DNA of 64,000 nt from positions 58,537-122,536 of IMG/VR virus record IMGVR_UViG_3300001199_000003. The stretch is one strand, 5' to 3'. Shown one piece after another: positions 6,978 through 45,755 of this stretch. Each line of letters starts with the position of its first letter. The stretch's first letter is position 1. Position numbers and translations under genes: made by a program. The notes beneath the pieces are model-generated. The model was not told where the DNA came from and made no database searches. It worked only from the letters and a program-made list of their open reading frames with translations. The stretch comes from a virus. Taxonomy: Duplodnaviria; Heunggongvirae; Uroviricota; Caudoviricetes.

Positions 6978-7426
6978 GCGAACAAGTAAATCCAATACAT
7001 GGGACCAGAGATGGTGCAGAATGTCCTGGATGTTCACATGAAAGCCATTTTGAGGAGAAATCTATGAGTATTGAAAAAGATCGCACGGTAGGATATGCTC
7101 AACCAGGACCTAAAGCTCCTCCTCACGCTATGAACGGTAGATTTATTCTGGAAACCTACAAAGAAGATCGCGCTCTAAAAGCTACGGTTTCAAATGGTTT
7201 CGCTATGGTTCAACAGAAAGTGTCTCTCAAAGGCCTCACTGTTTTGGCTGATGTGTTTTCGCCTGTTAACGGTCAACCGCTTGCGCGTAGAGGCGATAAA
7301 GCTTTTATTCGTGAAGCATCTCTTCAGTCACAGCCATGGGCTAAAGCTTCTTTTACTGCAGATGGTATTGAAGGCGAGTTCATGATTGTTGAAATGACCT
7401 ATATCGAATTCGTGGATCATAAATAA
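6974..7426 (+). CDS. hypothetical protein
   Basis: Track ORF. Start overlaps the upstream stop (ATGA). Confidence 0.5.
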   Translation: MSEQVNPIHGTRDGAECPGCSHESHFEEKSMSIEKDRTVGYAQPGPKAPPHAMNGRFILETYKEDRALKATVSNGFAMVQQKVSLKGLTVLADVFSPVNGQPLARRGDKAFIREASLQSQPWAKASFTADGIEGEFMIVEMTYIEFVDHK

Positions 7427-9503: not shown

Positions 9504-10475
9504 ATGAAAAACGCACTTAAATTTACACTGAGCTTGATGCTCGTTGCCTTTATGGTAGCGGTTCCTGCTCAAGCAGGGGCGATTAAAAAGATCGTTCTTA
9601 CTTCAGACAATACACTCAGTCTTAATGATGCTGTTACTGGCGCTTCAGTTGCTGAAGTTATCACTAAAGCTAAAGAACTGGACAGTAGCTTTGGTGTTTA
9701 CGCCACTATTACCGGCAAGAAAGATATCTATTTTTATCTTCGCACTCCAGGTGGATCAATTCAATCCGGCCTTGAGATGTTTGAAGCTCTTAATGGCCTT
9801 GATCGTCCAGTTCACACTATTACTAGCTTTGCAGCTTCTATGGGTTTCCAGACGGTTCAAAACCTTGGAAAACGCTATATTGTTAAAAGCGGTGTTTTGA
9901 TGTCCCACAGAGCGTCAGGTGGATTTGAAGGATCATTTGGTGGACAAAAACCGAGCCCAATGGACTCTCAAAAGAACTTCTGGGAACAACGTCTTCACGA
10001 AATGGATATGAAAACCGTAGAGCGCACTAAAGGTAAGCAAACTCTAGCTTCTTACCAAGCTCAATACGCTCCTGATATGTGGTTAACCGGTACTCAAGCT
10101 GTTGAGCAAGGATATGCTGACGAAGTTGTTCAAGTTCAGTGCGATTCATCTTTGGCCGGAGTGACTACTAAATCTGTGAATTTCATGGGTTTAATCAATA
10201 TCAACTACGACCTTGATAATTGTCCTTTAAATTCTACTCCAATGAATATCCGTATTTCTCGTATCGCTACCAATAAAGGTGAAATGGACTTTAATAAGTT
10301 TCAAGCTGCTGGCGGCGGATACGGTGTTGACTGTCTAATCGCTTCTGGTACTGATAAAACTAAGGTTTGTGCTACTAACACTTCCCTTAATGCTGAAAGA
10401 ATATATGGTCTTAAAAATGAATTCCGTAATTACTATATGGATATTAAAGGCCAAGTAAAGAACTTCAGATATTAA
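9504..10475 (+). CDS. secreted ClpP-class (S14/S49-like) serine protease
   Basis: N-terminal signal peptide MKNALKFTLSLMLVAFMVAVPAQAG. ClpP-type active-site block ITSFAASMGF. Four cysteines in the C-terminal part. Confidence 0.45.
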   Translation: MKNALKFTLSLMLVAFMVAVPAQAGAIKKIVLTSDNTLSLNDAVTGASVAEVITKAKELDSSFGVYATITGKKDIYFYLRTPGGSIQSGLEMFEALNGLDRPVHTITSFAASMGFQTVQNLGKRYIVKSGVLMSHRASGGFEGSFGGQKPSPMDSQKNFWEQRLHEMDMKTVERTKGKQTLASYQAQYAPDMWLTGTQAVEQGYADEVVQVQCDSSLAGVTTKSVNFMGLININYDLDNCPLNSTPMNIRISRIATNKGEMDFNKFQAAGGGYGVDCLIASGTDKTKVCATNTSLNAERIYGLKNEFRNYYMDIKGQVKNFRY

Positions 10476-15979: not shown

Positions 15980-17659
15980 TTGGCAATGAAAAAACAAAAA
16001 AAGACTGCTAAGTCGGTGGATGATAAATCCGCCGACAGGCAGCTAGAAGTTCTATTAGCCTATATAGGCCTAGTGGAAACTGGGACATTGTTTCCGTCGC
16101 TTACTGACCTTAAAGAGGCTGGTATTACTCGGGAACGCGTTCGCCAAGGATTCAATACTTTGGCTGGATTGCGAAAATCTGCTAAACAGCAGTTTCCAGA
16201 TTCTTTTAAAGGGACTATTCAGCTAGATGACTATCTATCAGATAAAAACCTTGAAAAGTTAAACAAGAGAATTGCTAGAAATGAGCGTTTTCTTATTACT
16301 ACAGCGGTTTCCGGCCAAACAGCTCATGCTGGGTTTATGGATGCAATTAATAAGTATTGCGAAGTAAACAAAGCTAAGCTGCTAATTTTACCTTCACACG
16401 ATCCAGCTCATAACATGGATAACGAGATTGACTGGACATTTGATCCTAGAATCTCTAAAGAAGATATCATCTTTGAGGAAACAGTCCTCAATACTAACTT
16501 CTTTATCTCTGGTATCCGTGTAACAGCCAAACAGATCAATCCGATCACGGGCTTACAAGAGCTTTCCCAAACTAAGGGAAGTTTCATTTCAGCCTCTCCT
16601 AAGCAATCCTTGGAATTCGACGCAGTATCTGCTAGTAAATTCCCTCATGCTAGGATGACTTCTGGAGCCTGTACGCTTCCAAATTATTCTTCTACGCGTG
16701 GTAATTCTCAGCGTAGTTCGTACATTGCAAATTTTCAACATGTTATCGGCGCAGTTATTGTAGAAATAGTAGATGATAAAATTTATCATTTTAGACAGGT
16801 TCAGGCTAATGCTGAAGGTCTTTTCTGCGATCTTGGAGTAGAGTACAGCGCTAAAGGTGCTCGTAAGCTAGTTGGTGACGAAGCTCCAGTCCTGGTTATG
16901 GGCGATTATCACGCTGGCGAACATGACGAATCAGCTGTAGGTGCTTGGACTCAAATGATCAACCAATTGGGTATCCAAGAAGTTGTATTCCATGACATGT
17001 TTAACGGTGCTTCGATTAACCATCATGAAGAAAAAGACATTATGTCTCGCGCAGAGCGTATCCGTAAGGGTCTAGATTCTCTCGAAACAGAGCTTTCAAT
17101 TACTTCTGACGAGTTTGATCGTATTCTTGGCCTTAAATCGGTGAAGAAAGGCGTAGTTGTTAAATCTAACCACGATGACTTCATTGACAGATGGGTTCGT
17201 CCTTATAAGTTTGCTAAAGATCCGGTAAATGCCGAATTCGGTACTATTTTGGCTGCAGATATTATCAAAGCATCTAAAATTGGTCTCAAAAAAGACTTCT
17301 TTAAGACTGCTCTTGAGTTAAATGGCGCTCCAAACAATATGGACAAAATTAAATGGCTTAGTGCCGATGAAGACTATGTAGTAGGTGGAGTCCATTTAGG
17401 GGCTCACGGTGATAGATCCTCTAATGGAGCACGCGGTTCAATTAAGGGCTTAGCTCAGTCTTACCCTCGTTGCGTTATCGGCCACTCACATACGCCAGGT
17501 ATTTTTAAAGGCGCATTCCAAGTCGGGACTACATCTTTACTAAGACTAGGTTACAACAAGGGCCCGAGCAGTTGGGTGCATTGCTCTTGTTTAGTTTACA
17601 GAAATGGTCAGCGCCAGCTAATTAATTCAATTGACGGAGCATGGAAATTAAATGGATAA
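15980..17659 (+). CDS. hypothetical 559-aa protein
   Basis: Track ORF. GDYHAGEHDE and IGHSHTPG segments loosely resemble metallophosphatase motifs. Unresolved. Confidence 0.5.
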   Translation: MAMKKQKKTAKSVDDKSADRQLEVLLAYIGLVETGTLFPSLTDLKEAGITRERVRQGFNTLAGLRKSAKQQFPDSFKGTIQLDDYLSDKNLEKLNKRIARNERFLITTAVSGQTAHAGFMDAINKYCEVNKAKLLILPSHDPAHNMDNEIDWTFDPRISKEDIIFEETVLNTNFFISGIRVTAKQINPITGLQELSQTKGSFISASPKQSLEFDAVSASKFPHARMTSGACTLPNYSSTRGNSQRSSYIANFQHVIGAVIVEIVDDKIYHFRQVQANAEGLFCDLGVEYSAKGARKLVGDEAPVLVMGDYHAGEHDESAVGAWTQMINQLGIQEVVFHDMFNGASINHHEEKDIMSRAERIRKGLDSLETELSITSDEFDRILGLKSVKKGVVVKSNHDDFIDRWVRPYKFAKDPVNAEFGTILAADIIKASKIGLKKDFFKTALELNGAPNNMDKIKWLSADEDYVVGGVHLGAHGDRSSNGARGSIKGLAQSYPRCVIGHSHTPGIFKGAFQVGTTSLLRLGYNKGPSSWVHCSCLVYRNGQRQLINSIDGAWKLNG

Positions 17660-19274: not shown

Positions 19275-20198
19275 ATGATTAAAATTGGGTCACTTTTTAG
19301 CGGTGTTTCAGGCTTAGAGCTTGAGCTTCTAAAACGTCCAGATTTTGAGCTAGTATTCGTGGCAGACCCTGATAAGTTCTGCTCTCAGGTTTTGGCTTAC
19401 CATCATCCTAGGGCTCGCAATTTAGGATCTGTGACAGAGGTCGATTACAATACTGTCCCTGATTGTGACATGATCATGGGCGGAACCTCTTGTCAGAACT
19501 TCTCTTATCAAGGCGACAAGAAAGGCCTAGAGGGCGTGAAGTCTAAACTGTTCTATGATTTCGCAAAAATCATCCAGTTTAAGCAGCCTAAATATGTAGT
19601 TTGGGAAAACGTATTTGGGGCCTATACTCACAGTGATTTTCAAATTGTAAAGGAAATATTCAATGAAATCGGATACGAAATCGACTACGGTATCTTTAAC
19701 TCAGCAGTCTTTGCAAGAACAATTCAGCAACGGCAGCGAATCATCCTCCTTGCCACGCGTAAAGACCTTAACCAAGTTAGACTTGATCGCACAATACCTA
19801 GTCTCGAACTCGGTCAAGAGATGCAAGATCTCCAAAAGCGACTGGTCGGGGTTAGCAAGTCTCATCGAGAAGAAAAAGTAGACAGAGAAGGAAACATCAT
19901 CGAAGAAGGTAAGATCGAGGTTCGTTTGAACCATGGCTTAGCCAATACTCTTGTGACTGGATGGGGATGCGCCGGAGTTAGCACTAAAAACTACACCGTA
20001 GGCGAAGATGGCACTTTAAGCGAACTTACCGTCAACGAAGCAGAACTTCTCATGACTTGGCCAAAAGATTGGACTAGGTACGGTTTTAAAGATGGAGAAG
20101 TTGTTGAGATACCTACTGCTCAGCGCTATAAAATGTGCGGAAACGGTGTAGTGTCTGAGGTTGTTGGAAACATATTTAAAAATTTGGAGTTAGTATGA
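19275..20198 (+). CDS. DNA cytosine-5 methyltransferase
   Basis: Motif I FSGVSGLE, motif IV GGTSCQNFS (TSCQ where the canonical motif is PCQ), motif VI WENV. Confidence 0.65.
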   Translation: MIKIGSLFSGVSGLELELLKRPDFELVFVADPDKFCSQVLAYHHPRARNLGSVTEVDYNTVPDCDMIMGGTSCQNFSYQGDKKGLEGVKSKLFYDFAKIIQFKQPKYVVWENVFGAYTHSDFQIVKEIFNEIGYEIDYGIFNSAVFARTIQQRQRIILLATRKDLNQVRLDRTIPSLELGQEMQDLQKRLVGVSKSHREEKVDREGNIIEEGKIEVRLNHGLANTLVTGWGCAGVSTKNYTVGEDGTLSELTVNEAELLMTWPKDWTRYGFKDGEVVEIPTAQRYKMCGNGVVSEVVGNIFKNLELV

Positions 20199-24333: not shown

Positions 24334-27300
24334 ATGAAAGTTAGCCCACATACACATGCAGAGTCACCTCTAACCGGTTCAACCCTGGCGACTTTAGTGA
24401 AATCCGCAAAGACACTTGGACGAACTCACTTCGCCTACACGGATCACGGCCACTTAAGCTCTGCGCTTAAAGCCTACAATCAAGTTAAAAAAGCTGGTCT
24501 GAAATTCATTCCAGGAATTGAGATCTATTTTAAAGATACTATGTGTCCGTTAGTTGCTGGTACTCCTGTTGACCGTTGTAAGTATTTTACAACAACTATC
24601 TATTGCCAGGACCAAGCCTCCTATCAAGAACTTTGTAAGATAGTTTCCCGTACTGATATGCCTACTATGGAATTCTACGAAGAAAGTCAGCAATTATGGC
24701 GTTGGGAAGATCTTGAGCAGATGGCCAAATTCAACACACAGATCGTCCTTTCGGGCGTTCACTGTATGGTCGGTAAAGCTATGCTTGCCGGTAAAGCCGA
24801 TATTGGGGAGAAAATTTTGACCCGATTACAGGGTTTATTCGGGTCACGCCTATCAGTTGCTATTTTGGCTGAACCTTGGCTTAAGAAATTCTCACAGGTT
24901 ATTGAAATCAAATATGAAGATGGTACGTCAGATTCCATCCTGGCAACAGATAGTGTTTCTACCGACCGTGCTCGTTCTATACGAGCAAAAGATCTATGTG
25001 AGCCGTTTAGTCGTCATAAGCACATCAAGTCTAAGTCGGTCGGAATGATGAGTTCCGAAGTCAATAAAGATATTAAGAAGGCTACTTTACATAAAGGGTT
25101 CCTACCTTTGCCTGGCGGAGATGCTTCTTTGAAGGTAAACCGCTTTCTCGCTGCTTTGGCTAACAAGCACGGGATCAATATTTTAGTCACCGATTACGCT
25201 TATTACGCAAATAAAGAAGATAAAATCGTTCAAACCATGCGTTTAGAAGGTAATAATAAGCTTCAGCCAAATCTTCACATGAAGAATGAACAAGAAGTTA
25301 TGGATTATCTCACGGTAACTATGGGATTTCCAGCTGAAAAAGCTAAATCTATCATCGAAAACAACGAAAAATGGGCTGAAAAGTTCAATGATTTCAAAAT
25401 AACCTATGCTTGGCGTCTTGCTGAGGTCGAAGGTTCGCAATCTGCCATTAAAACTGCCATGGATATCGTTAAAGACAATAGTCGAATGCGTTGGAATGAT
25501 CCAAAATACGTTGAAAGACTTAAAGAAGAGCTGGCTGTAATTCACTCAAACGGTGTTTACGATCTTGCCCCATATTTCTTACCGATCCATGCCGTTCTTG
25601 ATCACTATCGCAGAAACGGATTGTTGACTGGCCCTGGACGGGGTTCTGCCGGTGGATCTCTTTTGTGTTATTTAATGGGGATCACTCAGATTGATCCATT
25701 CGATTTTGACCTACCATTCCAGCGATTCTTCTCGATGGTCCGTATTAAGAGTAAAAAACTTCCAGATATCGACGTGGATTTAGAGGGCCGAGAATTGCTC
25801 GTAGGCGAGGACGGACATTCTGGCTACCTTTACGGCCGATGGGGCAACAAAGCTGCTCAGATCAGTACCAGAACCACAATCAGGCTAAAATCAGCCATCC
25901 TAGACACTAACCGTTATTTCAATGGTAAGGTTGAGGATTCAATCGCTGCCCTTTCCAAGGGTCTCCCTACGCCTCCACAGGGTGTAACGGATCACCAATT
26001 CGTATTTGGCTATGAAGACTCAGATGAAAACCATATCGACGGTCTAATCGAAGTAAACGATGATCTTCGTAAATATTCAATAGATCGGCCAAAAGAGTGG
26101 GAGATTGTGTCGAAGGCAATGGGTCTCACAAGAGCCTATTCTAAACACGCATCGGCATTCGTTATTGCAGATGTTCCTATTCAAGATGTTATCCCTACTA
26201 AAGATGGAAACATCACGCAATATGAAGCTAAAGAAGTTGAGGAAGCCGGTCTGATTAAGTACGACTTCCTAGTTGTTAAGCAGCTCAAAGATATTCGAGT
26301 TGCTATGGAACTGATCAATAAGAAAAATAAAGCAACTAAAACTGTAGGGTATTTTGACCACAACGGTCAAGAGCTTTACGTCTGGAAACTCCCTCAAGAG
26401 GGCGATGTTTACCGGTCAATCTGGAATGGTCAAACTGAGACTCTATTTCAGATCAATACGGCTTCTATGCGACCGTTTGTGGTTGATATGTTACCTGAAA
26501 ACATGATGGACGTTGCCACCCTTCTTGGTCTAGTGCGACCAGGACCTATGGACTTTATCGACGAAGATACTGGCCGAAACATGGTTGAAGAGTACATGCT
26601 CCTTCGTAAGAAAGAGATTGATCCTAAGATCAAAGAAATGTACGAGCTTCTTCCAGAGACTTTCGGGATTTTAGTATTCCAAGAGCAGCTTGGTACAATT
26701 GCTAGAAAGCTAGCAGGATTCTCAGGAGAGGACGCAGAGTTACTCCGAGAAAATATGGCCAAAAAGAAGATGGTCGAACTTTTGAAAATGAAGCCTGCTT
26801 TTATGGAAGGTGCTGTCAAGAATATTGACCCAGCTATTGCCGAGAAGATCTGGGAATCAATGGTGACGTTCGGTCGTTACGGATTCTCGGTAATTCACGC
26901 CGTTGAATACGCACATATTACCTACGCTTGTATGTTCTTAAAATACCACTATCCCTTAGAATGGTGGGCTGCAGTTCTTACGAACGCGACCGAACAAGAG
27001 ATCACCGGTAAGTTTTGGCCATTCGTAAAAGACATCGTTTCACCTCCAGACATTAACTTGTCTTCGGATACTATGGCAGTGGATTACGCTAACGGACTAT
27101 TGCGTTCAAAACTCGGGATTATCCGTGGTATGGGCGAGAAGACTATTGATCCAATCGTTTCTGGCCGCCCTTATGCGGATATCCAGGATTACGTGAACAA
27201 AGATGTTGCAGGCGAAAGCTTAACTCACAAATTAATTCACGTTGGCGTATTGGATTCTCTATTTCCTCCTAAGTCTGGACTGTACGATAAGTTGAAGCTT

Positions 27301-27891
27301 TATCAGCAAGCTATTCAGAATAAAGCCTACGAAGACAAACTTGCTAAGGCTACCGCTGAAGGTAAGAGAATGCGTCAGACAGCTCCGAAAGAAGGGCAGA
27401 TCCCAGAGGATTATCTGAACATTCCACCAATCAAAGATGTGGCAATGAGAAAAGCAGTTCTACCGTCTCTCCCTGTAGATCTATTTAGTCTAGGTGCTAA
27501 GTATTCTAAAGTGCTAGATCCATTTTCGGATAGACCAGCAGTTAGATCACGCCAAGGCTATAAAACTCTTCTGTTAAATGGTGAGAAACTACGTCGTTTA
27601 GATGAGCTTGAAGGATTAATGGTCGAGGAAGATATTTATATCGCCGCTACCTGTTTTGTATTGGAAGCTAAAGAATTTGCCTATGCTAAGAATACCAAAA
27701 AAGCTCTCAAATTAATGCTTGACGCAGATGGCTATGTCTCAGAAAAGGTATTATGGCCAGAGTATGAAAGTGGAAACCTAGTTTACCCTTCTACTCTTAA
27801 GAAAGGTGCTATCGCTACGGTTTTTTTCAGGAAAAAGACCGGCAGAAAAGATATGTCGATCATGAACATAGTGGTAGAAACAGATACTTGA
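24334..27891 (+). CDS. dnaE: DNA polymerase III alpha subunit (DnaE-type, PHP domain)
   Basis: N-terminal PHP motifs HTHAES...YTDHGHLSS...IPGIEIY. Conserved polymerase block GPGRGSAGGSLLCYLMGITQIDP. 1185 aa. Confidence 0.85.
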   Translation: MKVSPHTHAESPLTGSTLATLVKSAKTLGRTHFAYTDHGHLSSALKAYNQVKKAGLKFIPGIEIYFKDTMCPLVAGTPVDRCKYFTTTIYCQDQASYQELCKIVSRTDMPTMEFYEESQQLWRWEDLEQMAKFNTQIVLSGVHCMVGKAMLAGKADIGEKILTRLQGLFGSRLSVAILAEPWLKKFSQVIEIKYEDGTSDSILATDSVSTDRARSIRAKDLCEPFSRHKHIKSKSVGMMSSEVNKDIKKATLHKGFLPLPGGDASLKVNRFLAALANKHGINILVTDYAYYANKEDKIVQTMRLEGNNKLQPNLHMKNEQEVMDYLTVTMGFPAEKAKSIIENNEKWAEKFNDFKITYAWRLAEVEGSQSAIKTAMDIVKDNSRMRWNDPKYVERLKEELAVIHSNGVYDLAPYFLPIHAVLDHYRRNGLLTGPGRGSAGGSLLCYLMGITQIDPFDFDLPFQRFFSMVRIKSKKLPDIDVDLEGRELLVGEDGHSGYLYGRWGNKAAQISTRTTIRLKSAILDTNRYFNGKVEDSIAALSKGLPTPPQGVTDHQFVFGYEDSDENHIDGLIEVNDDLRKYSIDRPKEWEIVSKAMGLTRAYSKHASAFVIADVPIQDVIPTKDGNITQYEAKEVEEAGLIKYDFLVVKQLKDIRVAMELINKKNKATKTVGYFDHNGQELYVWKLPQEGDVYRSIWNGQTETLFQINTASMRPFVVDMLPENMMDVATLLGLVRPGPMDFIDEDTGRNMVEEYMLLRKKEIDPKIKEMYELLPETFGILVFQEQLGTIARKLAGFSGEDAELLRENMAKKKMVELLKMKPAFMEGAVKNIDPAIAEKIWESMVTFGRYGFSVIHAVEYAHITYACMFLKYHYPLEWWAAVLTNATEQEITGKFWPFVKDIVSPPDINLSSDTMAVDYANGLLRSKLGIIRGMGEKTIDPIVSGRPYADIQDYVNKDVAGESLTHKLIHVGVLDSLFPPKSGLYDKLKLYQQAIQNKAYEDKLAKATAEGKRMRQTAPKEGQIPEDYLNIPPIKDVAMRKAVLPSLPVDLFSLGAKYSKVLDPFSDRPAVRSRQGYKTLLLNGEKLRRLDELEGLMVEEDIYIAATCFVLEAKEFAYAKNTKKALKLMLDADGYVSEKVLWPEYESGNLVYPSTLKKGAIATVFFRKKTGRKDMSIMNIVVETDT

Positions 27892-27907: not shown

Positions 27908-28714
27908 GTGTATTCTAATAGTATGAAAAAACTACTTATCATTCTAATGATCGCTTTACTTGGATGTACTGAAAAGCCTAAAGCTCCTACGCAGGAGACC
28001 AAAGTAGAATCTGCTCAAATGCGTAAGAAGAAAAAGCGCTACATTTGTGGCGAGAAAACTGTCGTAGTAGCCGTGATTGATACTGGGTTTAGTTTTTCCG
28101 ATCTCACTAAAAATGTAAGACTTTGCAATGAAGGTCACAGAGATTTTAGCGGAATGAACGAATTCGATAATCGTTACACTAAAACTCCAGTTCCTACCGA
28201 TAGCGATAAAGATTTTCATGGAACAAATATAGCTGGCTTGATCCAAGACTTTGGCTCTTATGCTAATTTCTGTATGGTAATTATCAAATATTATGATCCA
28301 AAAGCCACAGGTCAACAGAGCTTAGAAGCCAGTATCGCCGCAGTTAAATATGCAACTGACATTAAAGCGGATTACATTAACTATTCTAGTGGTGGCCAAT
28401 TATCTAATGATGCTGAGAATGTAGTCATTAAAGCGTATTTAGATCAAGGTGGAAAATTTATAGCTGCTGCTGGTAACGAAGCAGAGAATACAGATATTGC
28501 TCCTTTCTATCCTGCTATGTCAGATCCACGCATCGTATCTGTTGGTAGCACGGACATGTACGGCAAAAGACTTCCAACCTCTAATTACGGACCTAAAGTT
28601 ACTACGTGGGAAATTGGAGATAAGATGAAAGCTTTTGGAATCGTTAGAACTGGAACCAGTCAAGCAGCTGCTATTGTAACAGGTAAAACACTTAGAAAAG
28701 AATGTATCAAATAA
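27908..28714 (+). CDS. subtilisin-like (S8) serine protease lipoprotein
   Basis: Lipobox LLGC. Asp VAVIDTG, His DFHGTNIAG and Ser GTSQAAAIVTG catalytic blocks. Confidence 0.55.
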   Translation: MYSNSMKKLLIILMIALLGCTEKPKAPTQETKVESAQMRKKKKRYICGEKTVVVAVIDTGFSFSDLTKNVRLCNEGHRDFSGMNEFDNRYTKTPVPTDSDKDFHGTNIAGLIQDFGSYANFCMVIIKYYDPKATGQQSLEASIAAVKYATDIKADYINYSSGGQLSNDAENVVIKAYLDQGGKFIAAAGNEAENTDIAPFYPAMSDPRIVSVGSTDMYGKRLPTSNYGPKVTTWEIGDKMKAFGIVRTGTSQAAAIVTGKTLRKECIK

Positions 28715-29550: not shown

Positions 29551-30738
29551 ATGAAAGAGATACTTGAGAATATCTCGAAACATAAACAAAACAGGAGAAC
29601 GAAAATGAGTCGAGTCAAGTCCGGTTTCACCGCCAAAAAGTATTTCAAACTAAAAGATGGTCCAAGTACCTTCCGCATTCTTCCTCCAATGGAAGAAATG
29701 GGTAACAAAGGTAAAGGTAAGGACTGGTCTAAGTTTTACAAAGTCCACTACGGATATAAGAACACCGATGGTAAACTTCGCGTGTTCCAATCGTCTTTGG
29801 TCGAGAACCGTAAGACAAAAATGATCGAAGTTCCAGATGCAGCTGTTCAGCGCATCAAAGATCTTAAAGCAAAATTGGAAGAAGCTAAAGAAGCAAAAAA
29901 CTCAGCTGTAGTTGAAAAACTCGGCAAGCTTGTTTCTGGCCAAAAGCCTATGTATAACCTTGATGGAAACCACTACGTTAACGCTATCGACTCTCAAGGC
30001 AATATCGGAGTTCTTAAACTTCGTCACCGTGCCATGAAAGCTTTAGAAGATGAGATTAAGAAACTTGAAAAGAAAGGGATTGATCCTCTTTCTCTGACTA
30101 ACGGCCGTGAATTTGTATTCACACGTTCTGGTACTGGCCTTGATACGTCTTTCAAAGTTGACGTTAATCAAGAAGAACTAACAATTGAGGGTGTTGGTAA
30201 GGTTAACCGTGATAAAATCAGTAACTTATCTGAGGATCTAATCGCCCGTACAGAAAACGAGTGTGCTGATCTTAGTAAGCTTTTTAAAGCCGTATCTTCT
30301 GAAGATATCGAGCGCATTGTTAAGTCTTCAGATCTTCTTACTGGTATCAGCCCAGTTATCGACGAATTGTTCGATGCTAAAGGTGATACTAATGACGGCG
30401 GAGAAGGCGATGATGAAGGCGGATCTGACGACAGTTCTGGAGATAAAACAGCCGAACAAGCAGCTGCCGCAGAAGCTAAAGCTAAGGCTGATTACGAAGC
30501 AGCAAAAGCTCGTGATGCTAAAGCCGCCGCAGATGCTAAAGCAGCTGCTGACCTGAAAGCTAAGGCTGAAGCTGACGCTAAAGCCAAAGTAGAAGAAGTG
30601 AAAGCTGAAGCTGCTAAAAACGAAACCGCAAAAACTGAAACTACATCTCGAACTAGTACGTCTTCTTCTAGCGGAACTACCGCAGAAGCAGTATCGGACA
30701 TGTCAGATGCAGATTTCCTTAAGTCTCTAGGTCTTTAA
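29551..30738 (+). CDS. gp32-like single-stranded DNA-binding protein with Ala/Lys-repeat tail
   Basis: N-terminal TAKKYFKLKDG...FRILPP...KVHYGYKNTDGK resembles T4 gp32 (IRFLPS...VNHGFKKNGKWY). Acidic DDEGGSDD segment followed by AKA repeats. Confidence 0.4.
   Translation: MKEILENISKHKQNRRTKMSRVKSGFTAKKYFKLKDGPSTFRILPPMEEMGNKGKGKDWSKFYKVHYGYKNTDGKLRVFQSSLVENRKTKMIEVPDAAVQRIKDLKAKLEEAKEAKNSAVVEKLGKLVSGQKPMYNLDGNHYVNAIDSQGNIGVLKLRHRAMKALEDEIKKLEKKGIDPLSLTNGREFVFTRSGTGLDTSFKVDVNQEELTIEGVGKVNRDKISNLSEDLIARTENECADLSKLFKAVSSEDIERIVKSSDLLTGISPVIDELFDAKGDTNDGGEGDDEGGSDDSSGDKTAEQAAAAEAKAKADYEAAKARDAKAAADAKAAADLKAKAEADAKAKVEEVKAEAAKNETAKTETTSRTSTSSSSGTTAEAVSDMSDADFLKSLGL
30455..30625 (+). repeat. GCT-AAA-GCN periodic low-complexity repeat (encodes the AKA tail)
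   Basis: Repeated gctaaagc / gctgaagc units inside 29551..30738. Confidence 0.5.
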
Positions 30739-30748
30739 GAGGTAGAGA

Positions 30749-31282
30749 ATGAGCGATCAACAAACAGATTCATCTTTAATGGTCCTTCCCGCTTTCGGGA
30801 AGGCACCAGTCCTAAAGATGGAAATGGCAAACGTCAGAACAGCAGAAAGAAGACTTATTGAAGCTAAAACTGTGAATCCGATGACTTATGCGGATTTGGA
30901 GCATACCTTCAATGAGGCTTATCGTGATCTTAAGAAGCACCTTGCTTCTATTGGGTACGCTCTGACACTCGCTCAAAAATCTCTCGAAGATGCTAAAGCA
31001 GACGTGATTCTAGGTTCCTATGCTGAGATAATGAAAGATAAGCCGAAATCTTACGATACTTTAGATATGCGTAACGCCTATCTGACTCGCGATGAGGCTT
31101 ACTCAGCTGCCCTCGATAGGATTGGCCAGCTTAAGGCGATAGAATCAAATCTGGATGGCAAGATAAAAGTTATGGAGAACGTGTGTCGATACATGCGAAA
31201 GCAGATGGATCTACTTCTCCGTAGTGGAATGTCGAGCAAAGATTATTACGTAACAATAGATAACACAAAAAAACGAGTTTAA
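30749..31282 (+). CDS. hypothetical protein
   Basis: Track ORF. Confidence 0.5.
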   Translation: MSDQQTDSSLMVLPAFGKAPVLKMEMANVRTAERRLIEAKTVNPMTYADLEHTFNEAYRDLKKHLASIGYALTLAQKSLEDAKADVILGSYAEIMKDKPKSYDTLDMRNAYLTRDEAYSAALDRIGQLKAIESNLDGKIKVMENVCRYMRKQMDLLLRSGMSSKDYYVTIDNTKKRV

Positions 31283-31297
31283 CTTAAGGAGTTAAAA

Positions 31298-32722
31298 ATG
31301 GATTTAATGACACTTGGTATTGTGGCAGGCGGAATTCTAGGCCTAGCCGGTATCGCTTTCCTAGTAGCAGTCAGTTTACGTCGAGTCGTTCCTACGAACG
31401 AAGTTCACATTGTTCAGTCTGCAGCAAGCACTACGTCTTACGGTAAGGGAACTGGTCACGGTAACTCTTACTTTGAATGGCCTACTTCTATCCCTTTCCT
31501 GGGCGTAAGTAAGACAGTCATGCCTACATCTAACTTCGACGTAGATCTTAAAGCGTATGAAGCTTACGATGACGGTCGTCTCCCTTTCCTGGTAGATATT
31601 AAAGCATTCTTTAGAATTGCTGACTCAAACGAAGCTGCTCAAAAAGTTGCTAACTTTGATGAACTTCTTAATCAGTTAACTGCCATTGTTCAAGGTGCTG
31701 TACGTACTGTTTTGGCTTCAAACTCGATTGAAGAAATTATGCAAGGCCGCTCTAAGTTCGGTACTGAGTTCACTAAAGAAGTTCACGAACAGCTTAAAAA
31801 CTGGGGTGTTGAAACTGTTAAGAATATCGAACTTATGGATATTCGCGATGCTAAGGATTCTAAAGTAATCCACAACATCATGGAAAAGAAAAAGTCTCAA
31901 ATTGAATCTGAATCTCGCGTAGCTGTAGCGAATAACCACAGAGATGCTGAGCTTGCAGAAATCGCGGCTCGTCAGCAAACTGATCTTAAAGCTCAAGAAG
32001 CTCAAGAAGCAGTTGGTCTTCGTACTAACGAACAAGAAAAAGCCGTAGAGATTGCTAAACAAGAGAAAATTCAAGCTCTTAAAGAGCAAGAAAAGACGAC
32101 TAAAGAAAAAGAAATGGCCGTTATTAAGATTGGTAAGCTTCGTGAAGCAGAGATTGCTAAAGAAGTTGCCCTTGTTAAGTCTGAACAGGATAAACAAGTT
32201 GCTTTGATTCGCTCTGAGCAAGAGAAGCAAGTTGCGGTTATCGCTGCAGAAGGTGAAAAACAAAGAATTGAGCTTGAGTCTTCTGGTCAGTTGAAAGCTA
32301 CCCAAAACCAAGCTGAAGGTATCGCCGCTACTGGTAAAGCAAATGCTGAAGCTGAACAAGCTATCCTTGCTGCTCCAGTTAATGCCCAGATTCTTTTGGC
32401 CAAAGAGATCGGTGGAAACGAGTCGTACCAGAAGTACCTCATCACTATCGAGCAAGTTAAAGCTAACGCTCAAGTCGGTATGGAACAAGCTAAGGCTCTC
32501 CAAGCTGCTGACGTTAAAATTATCTCAAACTCTGGTAAGTCAACTGACGGCCTTAAGAGCGTAATGGATGTCTTCTCTTCCCAAGGTGGAGTAGAAATCG
32601 GTGCGATGCTTGAAGGTCTAGCTGCTACTGAGAAAGGTCAAGAGTTGATTGGTAAGTTTTTAGGTGGAAAGAAAACAGCAGCTGCTGATAAAAGCCCACT
32701 AAGTGACTCAGCTAAATCGTAA
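31298..32722 (+). CDS. SPFH/band-7 (flotillin-like) membrane protein
   Basis: N-terminal transmembrane helix, SPFH-like core, then a long Glu/Ala/Lys coiled-coil repeat region as in flotillins. Confidence 0.6.
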   Translation: MDLMTLGIVAGGILGLAGIAFLVAVSLRRVVPTNEVHIVQSAASTTSYGKGTGHGNSYFEWPTSIPFLGVSKTVMPTSNFDVDLKAYEAYDDGRLPFLVDIKAFFRIADSNEAAQKVANFDELLNQLTAIVQGAVRTVLASNSIEEIMQGRSKFGTEFTKEVHEQLKNWGVETVKNIELMDIRDAKDSKVIHNIMEKKKSQIESESRVAVANNHRDAELAEIAARQQTDLKAQEAQEAVGLRTNEQEKAVEIAKQEKIQALKEQEKTTKEKEMAVIKIGKLREAEIAKEVALVKSEQDKQVALIRSEQEKQVAVIAAEGEKQRIELESSGQLKATQNQAEGIAATGKANAEAEQAILAAPVNAQILLAKEIGGNESYQKYLITIEQVKANAQVGMEQAKALQAADVKIISNSGKSTDGLKSVMDVFSSQGGVEIGAMLEGLAATEKGQELIGKFLGGKKTAAADKSPLSDSAKS

Positions 32723-32739
32723 TCAGTTAGGAGTATCAA

Positions 32740-33825
32740 ATGGCTAAGCAAAAAGAAGAAACCGCAGAGAAACCAAAATCTGCGGGCAATAAATGGCTGA
32801 AACAGCTCAGAGCCTATGATGACACGGTCAATCCAGACTATGACTCATACGCACCTGAAAACTGTCTCTACACGCCAAGTCCTTACTTTAACTGGATCTT
32901 CGCAAACAAATCGAACGGCATTCCTAGGAATGCCTCGATTTTGCTCTACTCTGAGCAGAAGGCTGGTAAATCGTTAGGGATCTACTCGATGGTTTTAGAT
33001 ATGCAACGTCGAGACCCTGAAGGGATCGCGATCATTTTCAACACCGAGCTTCGTGGGCAACTACAAGGCGGAGTGTTTCCTGAGATTGATCAGGAAAGAA
33101 TGATCATCTACGATACTAACCTACCGGCAGAGATCTTCGACCGAGTCGAAAACGATATCAAAGCTATGGTTCAAGACGGAATGCCGTTGCGAATCCTGGC
33201 TGTGGATTCTATCTCTAACATCCAGGGTGTTAAGCGTGCAAACGCTGAGTCAGCTACGGATCACTTAGTAGGAGATCACGCCTTGACAGTTCAGATCGGG
33301 CTTTCAAAGCTAGTTCCGTTCTGTAAGCAGAACAAGATCATGCTCATCGGTACTTCACAGTTACGCGGTAACTTGGACGCTGGTAAGTATGGGCCAAAAG
33401 AGAAGATGGAAGCTTCATGGGCTGTAAAACATGCCTTTGAATATTTCGTTTCTTTCAAACGTGCCGGTGCTGCAGAAGACAAAGCGGATATCGAAGGTAA
33501 GACCTTTGAAGACGACGTTAAAGATGCACGCGATAATAAGCTTTTGACTGGACATAAGATTTTCGTGAAAATGGAAGCCTCATCTCTTGGCCCACAAGGA
33601 CGCTCAGGTGTCTTTACAATGGACTACGATAAGGGGATTATCAATCAACACGAAGAGATCTTTTTCCTGGCAAAATCCTTAGGTATCATTACTACGCCAA
33701 ACAATCGTACTTATTACTTCGGTGATAGGACTTTTAACGGCAAAAAAGAAGCAGCACTTGCTATCAGAGATGATAAGAAGCTCGCTGAAGATCTTTTAGC
33801 TGCTATCAAGAAAACAGACGAATAG
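32740..33825 (+). CDS. UvsX/RecA-like recombinase
   Basis: P-loop-like YSEQKAGKSLG, a second block ILAVDSISNIQG, and overall arrangement like T4 UvsX. Confidence 0.5.
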   Translation: MAKQKEETAEKPKSAGNKWLKQLRAYDDTVNPDYDSYAPENCLYTPSPYFNWIFANKSNGIPRNASILLYSEQKAGKSLGIYSMVLDMQRRDPEGIAIIFNTELRGQLQGGVFPEIDQERMIIYDTNLPAEIFDRVENDIKAMVQDGMPLRILAVDSISNIQGVKRANAESATDHLVGDHALTVQIGLSKLVPFCKQNKIMLIGTSQLRGNLDAGKYGPKEKMEASWAVKHAFEYFVSFKRAGAAEDKADIEGKTFEDDVKDARDNKLLTGHKIFVKMEASSLGPQGRSGVFTMDYDKGIINQHEEIFFLAKSLGIITTPNNRTYYFGDRTFNGKKEAALAIRDDKKLAEDLLAAIKKTDE

Positions 33826-39016: not shown

Positions 39017-39739
39017 ATGACTACTGAATCGAACCATAAATTAGATAAAAAGATTAAAGCGAAGTCCGACGACCACGTCTGGCACGTTCACGAATATGAC
39101 GTAGATTTGCAATCTAACCACATATACTTGATGGGTATGGAAAGCTACGCTGCGGGACATGAAGAGATGATCGGTGAGCCAGGAGTTGAATACTCCATGG
39201 CCAATAGATTCATCCGAAACTTGAACATCTGTATGCGTGCTAATCCAGATAAGCCTATTGTGATCCACATGAAAACCTGTGGCGGTCTGTGGGAAGAAGG
39301 CATGGCGATTTATGACGCGATTAAGTCGTGTCCAATGCCTGTAACTATCTTAAACTACACACATGCGCGTTCTATGTCGAGTCTGATCTTCCAAGCCGCT
39401 AATAAGCGTGTTATGATGCCCCATAGTTACTTCATGTACCACGATGGCACTTTGGCTGTAGATGGTACGACTAAGACGGTGATTTCTAATATTGAGTTCA
39501 CACAGAAGGTCAGCCAGGCAATGCTTGACATCTATGTTGATTCGATGAAGCTTTCTGGCAAGTACAAAAATCGTTCTCGTAAATGGCTCTACGCTTACCT
39601 GCGTGAGCAAATGGACAAGAAAGAAGACGTATTCGTAGTAGCTAAAGAAGCTGTGGAACTAGGATTTGCTGACTCAGTGTTTGATTACAACTGGGCTAAA
39701 CTGACCGATTACACTCAAGAAGAATTAGCTAGAGGATAA
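39017..39739 (+). CDS. ClpP-like (S14) protease
   Basis: IVIHMKTCGGLWEEGMAIYDAIK...ARSMSSLIF...MYHDG parallels ClpP INSPGG...AIYD...AASMGS...IHQP. Confidence 0.55.
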   Translation: MTTESNHKLDKKIKAKSDDHVWHVHEYDVDLQSNHIYLMGMESYAAGHEEMIGEPGVEYSMANRFIRNLNICMRANPDKPIVIHMKTCGGLWEEGMAIYDAIKSCPMPVTILNYTHARSMSSLIFQAANKRVMMPHSYFMYHDGTLAVDGTTKTVISNIEFTQKVSQAMLDIYVDSMKLSGKYKNRSRKWLYAYLREQMDKKEDVFVVAKEAVELGFADSVFDYNWAKLTDYTQEELARG

Positions 39740-41733: not shown

Positions 41734-41936
41734 GTAAAGAAATTATTGTCCCGATTTGCTGGTTAAATGGTGGAAATATGATTGATCGGGATACCCTCCC
41801 TTCAGATCACCCAGAATCCATGTACGGTTACATTAAGTATTCATTGAAGCTAAGACCGGAAGATTACGGTATCTATACCGATAAACAGATCGCAGAGAAT
41901 AAAATCAAACAGAGTGAAGAACTCGCAAAACACTAG
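41730..41936 (+). CDS. hypothetical protein
   Basis: Track ORF. Confidence 0.4.
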   Translation: MSKEIIVPICWLNGGNMIDRDTLPSDHPESMYGYIKYSLKLRPEDYGIYTDKQIAENKIKQSEELAKH

Positions 41937-42939
41937 CATGGAGACGGACATGAGTGAACTAGATGATGCAGCAGAGTGGGCCTCAGCGGCAGAAAACTTT
42001 GATGGCGATAAAAACGAAGGTAAGCAAAGTCTAAGAGGCAGCGCTCCAGACTACGATGATGACGATGACACGACTAAGAATCCTGGACAGCCGAATCAAT
42101 ACGCTCTATATGGAGCTGGCTACATGGCTACAACACCTACTATCAAATCGTTAGTAGCTGGCTGTTACGATATCCAAGCCGATAACCGTGGCGTATTCGT
42201 GGTTCCGGCATTACCTCCATCTGGGATTCTATTAGAGTTACCGGAAATGAGATCCGATGAAGTAATCCGCGTAGTGGATAACTTTTGGAACTCTGAAGCA
42301 GACTATAAAGATGGAAACGATTTCGTAGTAGGTGGCGCACAGTTCAAAGCTGGTGTGATGATCTACGGTCCTCCAGGATCAGGTAAGTCGTGTACGATTA
42401 AGATCGTATCTAAGAAACTAGTTGAAAGAGGTGGAACAGTATTCTTCAGTTCTGGCCACCCATCTAACACAATGCGTTGGTTGGAAGATTTCGCTAGAGT
42501 TGAGCCAAACAGAAAGTGCATTGTTATTTTAGAAGATATTGATAGTTTGATCCATAACTATGGTGAATCGAACTACCTAGAGATGTTAGATTCGGCCAAA
42601 ACGATTAATAATGTCTTGTTTATTGCCACGACGAACTATCCTGAGCACTTAGATCCTCGTATCTATAACCGTCCAGGTCGTTTTAGCCATGTAATTAAGA
42701 TCGGTCTTCCAGTTCCTGCGACTCGCGAAGCTTACCTCAAAGCGATCCTCAAGAATCACCAGGATGTTGAAGAGATCGTTAAAGAGTCTGAAGGCTTCAC
42801 AATCGACCACTTGACCGCGTTGGTTAACGGTGTGTATCGTGAGAAGAAAGACCTCAAAACCGAGCTTAAACGCCTCCGTACACTGTTTAAAGTACCTAAA
42901 GGTAGCGATAAGCCTGCTCTGGGGCTCAGCAATGGGTAA
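41914..42939 (+). CDS. AAA+ ATPase
   Basis: Walker A GVMIYGPPGSGKSCT and Walker B VIVILEDIDSL. Confidence 0.65.
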   Translation: MKNSQNTSMETDMSELDDAAEWASAAENFDGDKNEGKQSLRGSAPDYDDDDDTTKNPGQPNQYALYGAGYMATTPTIKSLVAGCYDIQADNRGVFVVPALPPSGILLELPEMRSDEVIRVVDNFWNSEADYKDGNDFVVGGAQFKAGVMIYGPPGSGKSCTIKIVSKKLVERGGTVFFSSGHPSNTMRWLEDFARVEPNRKCIVILEDIDSLIHNYGESNYLEMLDSAKTINNVLFIATTNYPEHLDPRIYNRPGRFSHVIKIGLPVPATREAYLKAILKNHQDVEEIVKESEGFTIDHLTALVNGVYREKKDLKTELKRLRTLFKVPKGSDKPALGLSNG

Positions 42940-45302: not shown

Positions 45303-45755
45303 ATGAAAATGATGTTTGCCGAAATATTCTTTCTACTTACGATTATTACTATAATCCACGAACTTGGTCACTTTCTTATGGCCAAATACTTCAAATTCAA
45401 TATAAAAGAATTCTCCATCGGTAGTGGATTTACGATCTTTGAGCAGAAAATAAAGAACACAATGCTTGTCTTAAAACTAGTCCTACCTTTGGGTGGACAT
45501 ATTCGTGTTGATTTTGAAGTCAATAAGTTCAAACAGATGGACGACAGAAAACTCTTAGGTATCATCTGCGTCTCATTAGCTGGACCATTCATGAATATTA
45601 TCGTGGCTTTACTTACTTTCCAATATAACTTTGCATTCGCCGCTATGAGTTTTCTTACAGGAATTACAAACCTTCTACCGTTCGATATGACCGATGGAGA
45701 TATAGCCTTGGGCGGCATTAGGGAATACCTTAAAAGACGTAAGGAGAAAGCATGA
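45303..45755 (+). CDS. minimal site-2 protease (M50 family intramembrane metalloprotease)
   Basis: First TM helix carries IIHELGHFLMAKYF (HExxH), as in RseP TVHEFGHFWVARR. FSIGSGF...LPLGGHIRV matches FSIGFG...IPLGGYVKM. C-terminal NLLPFDMTDGD matches the NLLPxxxLDGG motif. No PDZ domains. Confidence 0.55.
   Translation: MKMMFAEIFFLLTIITIIHELGHFLMAKYFKFNIKEFSIGSGFTIFEQKIKNTMLVLKLVLPLGGHIRVDFEVNKFKQMDDRKLLGIICVSLAGPFMNIIVALLTFQYNFAFAAMSFLTGITNLLPFDMTDGDIALGGIREYLKRRKEKA

What the first reader, a model, noticed from the sequence alone, without database searches (positions are those of the whole stretch)
31298..32722. Flotillin/SPFH membrane-scaffold protein inside the replication module
It has an N-terminal TM helix, an SPFH core and about 200 aa of EA/K coiled-coil repeats. 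SPFH proteins partner with NfeD-type ClpP-class proteases in bacteria, and the phage encodes a periplasmic ClpP-class protease (9504). Together these could form a phage-built membrane microdomain, perhaps for DNA injection or replication anchoring. SPFH genes are rare in phages.
Basis: partly seen in the sequence, partly recalled or inferred. Interest (0 to 1): 0.5.

Follow-up and report, generated by a model that had tools for sequence, protein, structure and literature searches.

The report
Phage-borne flotillin-like membrane scaffold gene
This large phage carries a real, intact copy of a bacterial flotillin-type membrane-scaffold gene, but it is a portable accessory gene dropped into a variable slot and has no link to the phage's secreted protease, so it is a modest, already-annotated kind of find whose role in infection remains untested.

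Summary
ORF 31298-32722 (+, 474 aa) has a strong RBS, an N-terminal TM helix, a full-length SPFH/Band_7 domain (PF01145, 69 bits against a 23.6 cutoff), about 180-210 aa of E/A/K/Q-rich helix and a conserved C-terminal block. Human flotillin is the only solved structure that aligns along its whole length.

The interpretation does not hold.
- No NfeD domain was found in the window or next to 139 homologous loci.
- The ClpP-fold protein at 9504 is secreted, whereas the SPFH domain is predicted to face the cytoplasm.
- Neither ClpP gene in the window, nor the S8 or M50 proteases, co-occurs with SPFH in other phage lineages.

The position "inside the replication module" is circumstantial. In sister phages with the same collinear backbone, the slot between the UvsY-like and UvsX-like genes is empty or holds a GIY-YIG endonuclease or other inserts.

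The family has more than 2,700 members. It includes monocistronic chromosomal copies (Arenimonas, Pseudoxanthomonas, Helicobacter, Bdellovibrionota, Alphaproteobacteria) and copies in at least four unrelated cultured phage lineages, some already annotated "flotillin" or "SPFH". Phage and cellular copies keep the same conserved residues.

The most likely role is a host-derived accessory gene that forms flotillin-like cages on the inner membrane to support membrane function during infection. This is a new member of a known kind, of modest interest.

The parts
31298..32722 (+). Flotillin-like SPFH protein gene (474 aa): TM helix aa 2-27, SPFH domain aa 28-189, E/A/K/Q-rich helices aa 190-370, conserved C-terminal block aa 355-454, variable tail
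   Evidence: ORF; PF01145 at 69 bits; AF2 model pLDDT 76.5; Foldseek and PDB sequence matches to flotillin, stomatin, QmcA and HflK/C; family alignment with 61% mean column identity
31284..31291 (+). Shine-Dalgarno region (AAGGAG) upstream of the ATG at 31298
   Evidence: Read directly from the sequence
30749..31282 (+). Upstream neighbour: UvsY-like recombination mediator (177 aa). It defines the 5' edge of the variable slot and is not an NfeD
   Evidence: No Pfam hit; mostly helical AF2 model, pLDDT 79; best folds are T4 UvsY, target-normalised TM 0.65-0.74; 378 homologs confined to about 156-172 kb phage contigs
32740..33825 (+). Downstream neighbour: UvsX-like recombinase. It defines the 3' edge of the variable slot
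   Evidence: phrog_97 at E=5.7e-23; collinear in L157, L158 and L160-L163

Best explanation
The gene encodes a functional flotillin-type SPFH scaffold of cellular origin that the phage carries as an accessory (moron-like) gene. It is made from the rightward gene block that also encodes SSB, UvsY-like, UvsX-like and DnaB-like proteins. The protein inserts through one N-terminal helix, with its bulk in the cytoplasm. Like every solved SPFH protein, it is expected to assemble through its long helices and conserved C-terminal segment into a ring or dome-shaped homo-oligomer on the inner membrane. Its effect is probably the same as that of the host's own flotillins: organising and stabilising a patch of membrane, including its fluidity and the integrity of membrane protein complexes. 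That would keep the infected cell's membrane working until lysis, or help the phage's own membrane and secreted proteins.

Shown: the domain content, the fold, the family, the accessory status, and the absence of an NfeD or ClpP partner.
Inferred: the oligomeric cage, the cytoplasmic orientation, and the benefit to infection.
For: A full-length SPFH profile hit. The fold and sequence match cage-forming SPFH proteins, and flotillin-1/2 align over 418-440 columns. The TM helix plus the positive-inside signal is consistent across 43 homologs. The C-terminal block 'LAPVEAQITLAKEIGxNxxYQKYL...KVIxN' is invariant or nearly so across the family. Of 110 columns conserved in phage copies, 101 carry the same conserved residue in chromosomal copies, and there are no class-specific fixed differences, so the biochemistry looks retained. 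The family occurs as single genes among ordinary chromosomal genes in cultured bacteria. It also occurs in unrelated phage lineages with entirely different neighbours. Phage and cellular sequences interleave in the tree, with Xanthomonas phage X1 next to the Lysobacterales chromosomal clade. Sister phages with the same backbone lack the gene at this slot. There is a strong RBS, gaps to the neighbouring genes are 15-17 nt, and promoter- and terminator-like sites in the surrounding 10 kb are no more frequent than chance.
Against: No experiment exists on any phage flotillin. The papers found only list the gene or call its role unclear (PMC13384950, PMC13239085). The cage is inferred from homologs, and the monomer model has low confidence at aa 257-272 and 405-431. 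'Membrane homeostasis' is generic and does not say which step of infection benefits. P. aeruginosa SPFH mutants show only subtle phenotypes (PMC13086221), so the fitness effect may be small or depend on conditions. Expression timing was not measured.
Confidence: 0.5

Rival explanations
1. Protease regulator. Like HflK/C and QmcA with FtsH, or stomatin with NfeD, the phage scaffold cages or tunes a membrane protease. The target could be host FtsH, the phage's own M50 site-2-type protease (45303-45755) or its cytoplasmic ClpP-fold protein (39017-39739). The effect would be to stabilise or process particular phage or host proteins.
For: The closest solved relatives include the QmcA-YbbJ and HflK/C-FtsH complexes. 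SPFH1, 2 and 5 families usually pair with NfeD proteins, some of which have ClpP domains (PMC2636767). This phage is unusually rich in proteases: two ClpP-fold proteins, an S8 lipoprotein and an M50.
Against: No NfeD domain was found anywhere that was tested. No neighbour is conserved across 139 loci. None of the four protease genes co-occurs with SPFH in other phage lineages. Chromosomal family members are monocistronic. A host FtsH interaction cannot be tested here.
Confidence: 0.15
2. Protection of the infected cell's membrane against outside or host attack. This could be superinfection exclusion, lysis-timing control, or blocking membrane-depolarising abortive-infection effectors, by covering or stiffening the inner membrane.
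For: The gene is patchy and horizontally mobile among unrelated phages and sits in a hypervariable slot, which is typical of conflict-related accessory genes. The protein is membrane-anchored.
Against: There are no hits in PADLOC. Phage copies show no sequence signature distinct from housekeeping chromosomal copies. No neighbouring anti-defence genes were identified. No literature support was found.
Confidence: 0.15
3. One reading: SPFH and the secreted ClpP-class protease (9504) form an NfeD-like pair that builds a microdomain for DNA injection or for anchoring replication.
For: Both genes exist in the window and in close relatives. The SPFH gene lies between recombination genes.
Against: The predicted locations are on opposite sides of the membrane. 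There is no NfeD domain. The genes are 21 kb apart. They do not co-occur across lineages. SPFH is absent from the same slot in sister phages whose backbone, including the replication and recombination genes, is otherwise collinear and conserved. A protein synthesised after injection cannot serve the infecting genome's own entry.
Confidence: 0.04

Closest known systems
Eukaryotic flotillin-1/2 (PDB 9bq2, 9l3g)
   Same: Best PDB sequence hit (E=1.6e-8, aa 129-422 against 102-393). These are the only solved chains that align along nearly the whole model (418-440 columns, 17-21% identity). The order of parts is the same: SPFH, then long EA-rich helices, then a C-terminal segment.
   Different: The phage protein has a true N-terminal TM helix instead of a hairpin with acylation. 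Identity is only about 20%. It would be a homo-oligomer, not a Flot1/Flot2 hetero-oligomer (inferred). Oligomer size is unknown.
Bacterial p-flotillins (SPFH2): E. coli YqiK, B. subtilis FloT/YuaG
   Same: An N-terminal membrane anchor with a basic juxtamembrane motif, an SPFH domain, an EA-rich coiled coil and a predicted cytoplasmic orientation.
   Different: BLASTP against YqiK aligns only the low-complexity coiled coil (E=4e-4). The NCBIfam FloT model scores 20 bits against a cutoff of 700. There is no NfeD2 (YqiJ/YuaF-type) gene upstream in the phage or in chromosomal family members. This is a separate, NfeD-less flotillin-like subfamily.
Annotated phage homologs: Brevundimonas phages vB_BpoS-Bambus, Marchewka and others ('flotillin'), Xanthomonas phages X1 and BUDD ('SPFH domain-containing protein'), Vibrio Thalassavirus (Brizo, Achelous and others), Ralstonia phage RP13
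   Same: Full-length homologs at 48-54% identity and about 90% coverage, with the same architecture.
   Different: The phage lineages and gene neighbourhoods are entirely different (tRNA island, NAD-salvage genes, small early ORFs), and none lies between UvsY-like and UvsX-like genes. None has been studied functionally (PMC13384950).
E. coli QmcA-YbbJ and HflK/C-FtsH cages (PDB 8z5g, 7vhq, 7wi3, 9cz2)
   Same: SPFH fold plus a helical wall. Both show that bacterial SPFH proteins form membrane cages.
   Different: They are shorter (about 300 aa), have dedicated partners (NfeD, FtsH), and HflK/C faces the periplasm. No partner was found here.

Membership tests
SPFH / Band 7 superfamily (PF01145) | Profile match to the SPFH domain above the curated threshold, covering the core | tested here: met
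   69 bits against a 23.6 cutoff; profile positions 2-174 of 176; aa 30-213
SPFH / Band 7 superfamily (PF01145) | Alpha/beta SPFH fold | tested here: met
   The AF2 model has pLDDT of about 84-94 over aa 1-240. The isolated SPFH domains of stomatin and flotillin-2 superpose at rmsd 1.8-2.9 A, target-normalised TM 0.70-0.86
SPFH / Band 7 superfamily (PF01145) | Assembly into a ring or cage oligomer on a membrane | not testable with these tools
   Inferred from homologs only. No multimer prediction or experiment was available
Flotillin type (SPFH2 / p-flotillin architecture) | N-terminal membrane anchor with the SPFH domain on the cytoplasmic side | tested here: inconclusive
   The TM helix is clear. 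Orientation is predicted only from the positive-inside rule: no K/R in the N flank and about 2 K/R in the C flank across 43 sequences
Flotillin type (SPFH2 / p-flotillin architecture) | Long EA-rich 'flotillin' coiled-coil region after the SPFH domain, plus a C-terminal oligomerisation segment | tested here: met
   Helices span 190-403, and aa 190-370 is 56% E/A/K/Q. The alignment to flotillin-1 reaches aa 422. Pfam's own Flot model gave no hit at E<=0.1
Flotillin type (SPFH2 / p-flotillin architecture) | Operon with an NfeD2-type gene (YuaF/YqiJ) | tested here: not met
   The upstream gene is helical and UvsY-like with no TM segment. phmmer with YqiJ and YbbJ finds nothing in the window or in 3,439 neighbour ORFs. 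No neighbour family is conserved. Orphan SPFH2 genes are known (PMC2636767)
FloT equivalog (NCBIfam NF058507) | Score above the equivalog cutoff | tested here: not met
   20.4 bits against a cutoff of 700. It is not a FloT ortholog
SPFH-NfeD protease pair (stomatin/PH1511 with PH1510; QmcA-YbbJ) | A partner protein with the NfeD C-terminal OB-fold domain and TM segments, with or without an N-terminal ClpP-class domain, encoded next to the SPFH gene | tested here: not met
   The 9504 protein has only a signal peptide and a CLP_protease domain, lies 21 kb away, and its homologs carry PF00574 alone. None of the window's predicted membrane proteins has an NfeD hit
Known anti-phage defence or counter-defence families (PADLOC) | Match to a defence-system protein model | tested here: not met
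   No PADLOC hit at E<=0.01

The most novel reading that the evidence does not exclude
Phages across several bacterial phyla traffic a self-sufficient, NfeD-less flotillin that builds cytoplasmic-face membrane cages in the infected cell for a virus-specific purpose. Examples would be shielding the inner membrane from membrane-depolarising abortive-infection effectors, setting lysis timing, or tethering a recombination and replication factory in the phage family that keeps the gene between its UvsY-like and UvsX-like genes. Phages would then be the main vehicle spreading this flotillin subfamily among bacteria.
Probability: 0.12. Interest if true: 0.65.

Novelty: new member of a known kind. Interest (0 to 1): 0.3.

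Why it matters
What bacterial flotillins do is still debated, and mutant phenotypes are weak. A flotillin that unrelated lytic phages have picked up repeatedly and kept intact implies a selectable benefit on the time scale of one infection. That could make a cleaner assay for flotillin function than host knock-outs. The family is also a compact candidate for structural work on bacterial flotillin cages: it has a single TM helix and no NfeD or other partner gene was detected. For annotating this window, the practical result is negative. The gene should be labelled a flotillin-like SPFH accessory protein, and it should not be treated as part of the replication machinery or as a partner of the secreted ClpP-fold protease.

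Tried and rejected
1. NfeD partner. Pfam scans of the ClpP-fold proteins, the upstream gene and all predicted membrane proteins in the window found none. phmmer with E. coli YqiJ and YbbJ against the six-frame window and 3,439 neighbour ORFs also found none. The single-sequence probes have limited sensitivity.

2. Conserved neighbours. All-against-all clustering of ORFs within about 10 kb of 139 loci found no family in more than 12 loci.

3. Co-occurrence. The following were each compared with the SPFH carriers by tblastn against 50,697 phage records, and none overlapped specifically: ClpP-1, ClpP-2, M50, S8 and the T5 A1-like protein. The comparison used the organism tallies and the listed rows, not a full accession intersection.

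4. Defence role. PADLOC gave no hit.

5. PHROGs gave no family for the SPFH protein.

6. Megablast of 7 kb around the gene against phage genomes gave no match, so the phage has no close cultured relative.

7. Close relationship to YqiK or FloT was rejected.

8. Promoter and terminator scans around the gene gave counts no higher than shuffled controls, so they were uninformative.

9. A profile search of the upstream 177-aa family against PDB sequences found nothing. Only the fold comparison pointed to UvsY.

10. The antisense ORF 31718-32503 (261 aa, L/F/S-rich) is the mirror image of the EA-rich coding strand, and I dismissed it as a gene.

11. Literature searches found no functional study of a phage-encoded flotillin.

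Not done: the 1.84-billion-protein representative search, multimer modelling, and whole-genome checks of whether sister phages carry SPFH elsewhere.

Full report

Yes. An ATG-initiated ORF occupies exactly 31298-32722 on the + strand and encodes 474 aa. An AAGGAG Shine-Dalgarno sequence lies 6 nt upstream. Pfam's Band_7/SPFH model (PF01145) matches at E=6.9e-19 and 69 bits, against a gathering score of 23.6. The match covers profile positions 2-174 of 176 and residues 30-213. The refutation condition 'coiled coil alone explains the similarity' is therefore not met.

A hydrophobic helix lies at the N-terminus: KD 2.39 at aa 7-25, modelled as helix 2-27. Residues 190-370 are 56% E/A/K/Q. An AlphaFold2 model built on 43 homologs has mean pLDDT 76.5, and about 84-94 across the TM helix and SPFH core. 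It shows an alpha/beta domain at 28-184 followed by helices at 190-258, 272-370 and 375-403.

The 261-aa antisense ORF at 31718-32503 is the L/F/S-rich mirror of this repetitive coding region, and I do not treat it as a gene.

**2. What kind of SPFH protein is it?**

By sequence, the best solved relative is human flotillin-1 (9bq2_B, E=1.6e-8), aligned from aa 129 to 422. That span covers the second half of the SPFH domain, the helical region and most of the C-terminal segment. E. coli QmcA and archaeal and human stomatins follow.

By fold, the 60 matches with E<=0.001 are headed entirely by SPFH proteins solved as membrane rings or cages: stomatin, flotillin, QmcA-YbbJ, HflK/C-FtsH, prohibitin, erlin and the major vault protein. 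Only the flotillins align over essentially the whole chain (418-440 columns, 17-21% identity).

It is not a close relative of the classical bacterial flotillins. BLASTP against E. coli YqiK aligns only the low-complexity coiled coil (E=4e-4). NCBI's FloT equivalog model scores 20 bits against a cutoff of 700.

Across 43 family members the segment before the TM helix has no Lys or Arg, while the 14 residues after it average about two, including a nearly invariant LRRVV motif. By the positive-inside rule this predicts N-out/C-in, with the SPFH domain and helices in the cytoplasm, as for YqiK and QmcA. This orientation is a prediction and has not been measured.

**3. How large and how mobile is the family?**

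A search of 5.8 billion proteins returned more than 2,700 hits. The top 120 are all about 440-490 aa, carry PF01145 alone, and are 56-94% identical to the query. An alignment of 47 members has 61% mean column identity. There are invariant blocks in the SPFH domain and in a C-terminal segment (consensus LAPVEAQITLAKEIGxNxxYQKYL...KVIxN). The coiled coil between them varies in length.

In GenBank phages, 51 records carry full-length homologs at 48-54% identity:
- Vibrio Thalassavirus (T5-like Demerecviridae)
- Brevundimonas jumbo phages of about 350 kb, annotated 'flotillin'
- Xanthomonas phages X1 and BUDD of about 200 kb, annotated 'SPFH domain-containing protein'
- Ralstonia phage RP13
- one Erwinia record and one uncultured-phage record

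The gene neighbourhoods in these lineages share nothing: a tRNA island, NAD-salvage genes, or runs of small hypothetical genes. IMG/VR adds 70 viral loci on contigs up to 517 kb.

The same family also occurs in cellular genomes at 51-60% identity. Examples are cultured Arenimonas, Pseudoxanthomonas and Helicobacter saguini, and megabase-scale contigs of Alphaproteobacteria, Bdellovibrionota, Gammaproteobacteria and Spirochaetia. There it sits as a single gene among ordinary chromosomal genes.

In a neighbour-joining tree of 135 sequences, phage and cellular sequences interleave. Xanthomonas phage X1 falls next to the Lysobacterales chromosomal clade, its host's order. The window's protein groups with sequences from small or phage-sized contigs binned as Flavobacteriaceae and Saprospiraceae.

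Of 110 alignment columns conserved at >=90% in phage copies, 101 carry the same conserved residue in chromosomal copies. No column is fixed differently in the two classes. The phage copies therefore look biochemically equivalent to the cellular ones and do not look like decoys.

**4. Is it part of the replication module?**

Only by position. The flanking genes are a gp32-like SSB (29551-30738; Pfam gp32 at 24.7 bits, just under the 26.8 gathering score, and phrog_1192 at E=1.6e-6) and a UvsX-like recombinase (32740-33825; phrog_97).

The 177-aa gene immediately upstream (30749-31282) occupies the position NfeD has in bacterial flotillin operons. It has no Pfam hit. Its model is mostly helical with no TM segment (pLDDT 79). 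Its best structural matches are T4 UvsY, the recombination mediator (target-normalised TM 0.65-0.74, E about 0.03). The local order is therefore SSB, UvsY-like, SPFH, UvsX-like.

The UvsY-like gene has only 378 detectable homologs. Its longer contigs cluster around 156-172 kb, including one 100%-identical copy on a 171,229-bp contig, which marks an environmental phage family.

Seven loci of that family were compared. In six (L157, L158, L160-L163) the backbone PolIII-alpha, S8 peptidase, p256, SSB, UvsY-like, [slot], UvsX-like, p341, p173 (where detectable), DnaB-like is collinear. In the seventh (L159, SPFH 61-63% identical, 163 kb contig) the SPFH gene sits in a different context and none of these backbone genes lies within 10 kb. 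The slot's content varies:
- SPFH in the window, L157 (87% identity) and L158 (76%)
- nothing in L160
- a 100-aa ORF in L161
- a 387-aa repeat protein ending in a motif that looks endonuclease-like in L162
- a minus-strand GIY-YIG endonuclease in L163, whose backbone proteins other than S8 (45%) and p173 (40%) are 65-83% identical to the window's

The slot is therefore a hotspot for mobile insertions and SPFH is one of its cargoes. This removes the main argument for a replication-anchoring role.

**5. The proposed ClpP/NfeD partnership**

The protein at 9504-10475 does have a ClpP fold (PF00574, 53.7 bits). It begins with a textbook Sec signal peptide (MKNALKFTLSLMLVAFMVAVPAQA|GA) and retains an AASMG serine motif. 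In its family, 117 of 119 full-length members have a signal-peptide-like N-terminus, 118 of 119 have exactly four Cys in the last 125 residues, and all keep the S-M-G/A motif. It is very probably a periplasmic protease.

It is not an NfeD, however. No NfeD domain appears in it or in its 120 best homologs, and its only hydrophobic segment is the N-terminal signal peptide. It would lie on the opposite side of the membrane from the predicted SPFH domain. The two genes are 21 kb apart.

Its 273 matches among cultured phages are dominated by Mycobacterium, Escherichia and Klebsiella phages. None covers 80% of the protein. The 37 Vibrio (Thalassavirus) and 5 Brevundimonas SPFH carriers are not among them.

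It also shows no overlap with the SPFH carriers. The same holds for the S8 lipoprotein protease and the mini-M50 protease.

E. coli NfeD probes (YqiJ, YbbJ) find nothing in the six-frame window or in 3,439 ORFs flanking 139 family loci. No neighbour family occurs in more than 12 of those loci.

According to the reference survey of prokaryotic SPFH proteins, SPFH1, 2 and 5 normally share an operon with NfeD, while SPFH3, 4 and 6-12 do not, and orphan SPFH2 genes occur (PMC2636767). This family behaves as an NfeD-less flotillin-like group.

**6. Most likely mechanism**

I commit to the following, at about 50% confidence. The phage has acquired a working cellular flotillin-type scaffold and expresses it with its rightward replication and recombination gene block. 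The gaps to its neighbours are 15-17 nt, the RBS is strong, and promoter- and terminator-like sites in the surrounding 10 kb are no more frequent than chance. The protein anchors by one helix and assembles into a ring or dome on the cytoplasmic face of the inner membrane, as all solved SPFH proteins do. It acts as host flotillins are thought to act, organising and stabilising membrane and membrane-protein complexes (for example PMC7360373 and PMC11222466, found). This would sustain the infected cell's membrane functions.

Rivals:
- regulation of a membrane protease such as host FtsH (about 15%)
- membrane shielding, covering superinfection exclusion, lysis timing or counter-defence (about 15%)

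The remainder is 'none of these'. Oligomerisation, orientation and the benefit to infection are inferred. No phage flotillin has been studied experimentally in the literature I could search.

**7. Novelty and score**

Phage-encoded homologs of this exact family are already deposited and labelled. The X1 paper lists the gene among host-metabolism-related genes (PMC13384950). A separate paper on acute-oak-decline phages notes an SPFH-domain lipoprotein in phage GIB1, which I did not check for membership of this family, and says the reason for its presence in a phage is unclear (PMC13239085). This is therefore a new member of a known kind.

What this analysis adds:
- the family is an NfeD-less flotillin-like clade shared by chromosomes and many phage lineages
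- phage and cellular copies are under the same constraints
- in this phage family the gene is cargo in a hypervariable slot between the UvsY-like and UvsX-like genes

Interest is modest (0.3). The gene is ordinary in kind, but its repeated capture by lytic phages would give a tractable handle on flotillin function.

Noticed in passing
window 9504-10475 (+): A secreted ClpP-fold serine protease (323 aa) lying between the SbcD and SbcC genes. It has a Sec signal peptide, an AASMG motif and a C-terminal domain of about 110 aa with four Cys. The family has >=1,280 members; among the 119 full-length sequences of the 120 best homologs, 117 have signal-like N-termini and 118 have exactly four C-terminal Cys. 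A periplasmic ClpP-fold enzyme encoded by a phage is unusual, and its substrate is unknown.
   Followed up: partly
window 39017-39739 (+) and 41914-42939 (+): A second ClpP-fold gene (240 aa, PF00574 at 75.8 bits) with no signal peptide. It is conserved in sister phages L157 and L158. An AAA ATPase gene lies about 2 kb downstream. Together they may form a phage-encoded cytoplasmic Clp-like system.
   Followed up: partly
window 27908-28714 (+): An S8 subtilase whose N-terminus (MYSNSMKKLLIILMIALLGC) has a lipoprotein-type lipobox. It lies immediately after the PolIII-alpha gene and is conserved at that position in six sister loci. Cultured-phage matches are only in Lactococcus and Bacillus phages.
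   Followed up: partly
window 45303-45755 (+): A 150-aa membrane protein with an HELGH motif that matches Peptidase_M50 (site-2 protease family) at 81.9 bits. This is much shorter than cellular RseP. Only 8 phage records have any match.
   Followed up: partly
window 30749-31282 (+): A 177-aa protein with no Pfam or PHROG hit whose predicted fold best matches T4 UvsY. It is likely the recombination mediator of an SSB/UvsY/UvsX set, too divergent for sequence profiles to detect.
   Followed up: yes
window 31283-32739; loci L157, L158, L160-L163: The interval between the UvsY-like and UvsX-like genes is an insertion hotspot in this phage family of about 160-172 kb. It holds SPFH, a GIY-YIG endonuclease, a 387-aa repeat protein with an endonuclease-like C-terminus, a 100-aa ORF, or nothing. 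L157 also carries a NUMOD3-type gene just after its UvsX-like gene.
   Followed up: yes
window 15980-17659 (+): A T5 A1-like 'DNA transfer protein' with a metallophosphoesterase-like region (phrog_1745, E=6.8e-103) in a phage that also has a PolIII-alpha replicase. A1-like genes occur in 1,131 phage records, including T5-like, Flavobacterium, Caulobacter and Rhizobium phages.
   Followed up: partly
window 24334-27891 (+), 19275-20198 (+), 7426-8409 and 10729-12936 (+): The phage encodes a DnaE-type PolIII alpha subunit (1,185 aa), a C5 cytosine methylase and an SbcCD pair. The window has no tRNA genes, and 7 kb around the finding has no megablast match to any cultured phage genome.
   Followed up: no
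locus L159 (contig Ga0506524_0000243, 163 kb): A phage contig that carries the SPFH gene (61-63% identical) in a different context. A ClpX-like unfoldase (zf-C4_ClpX plus AAA_2), a second AAA protein and a response-regulator receiver gene lie within 10 kb.
   Followed up: no
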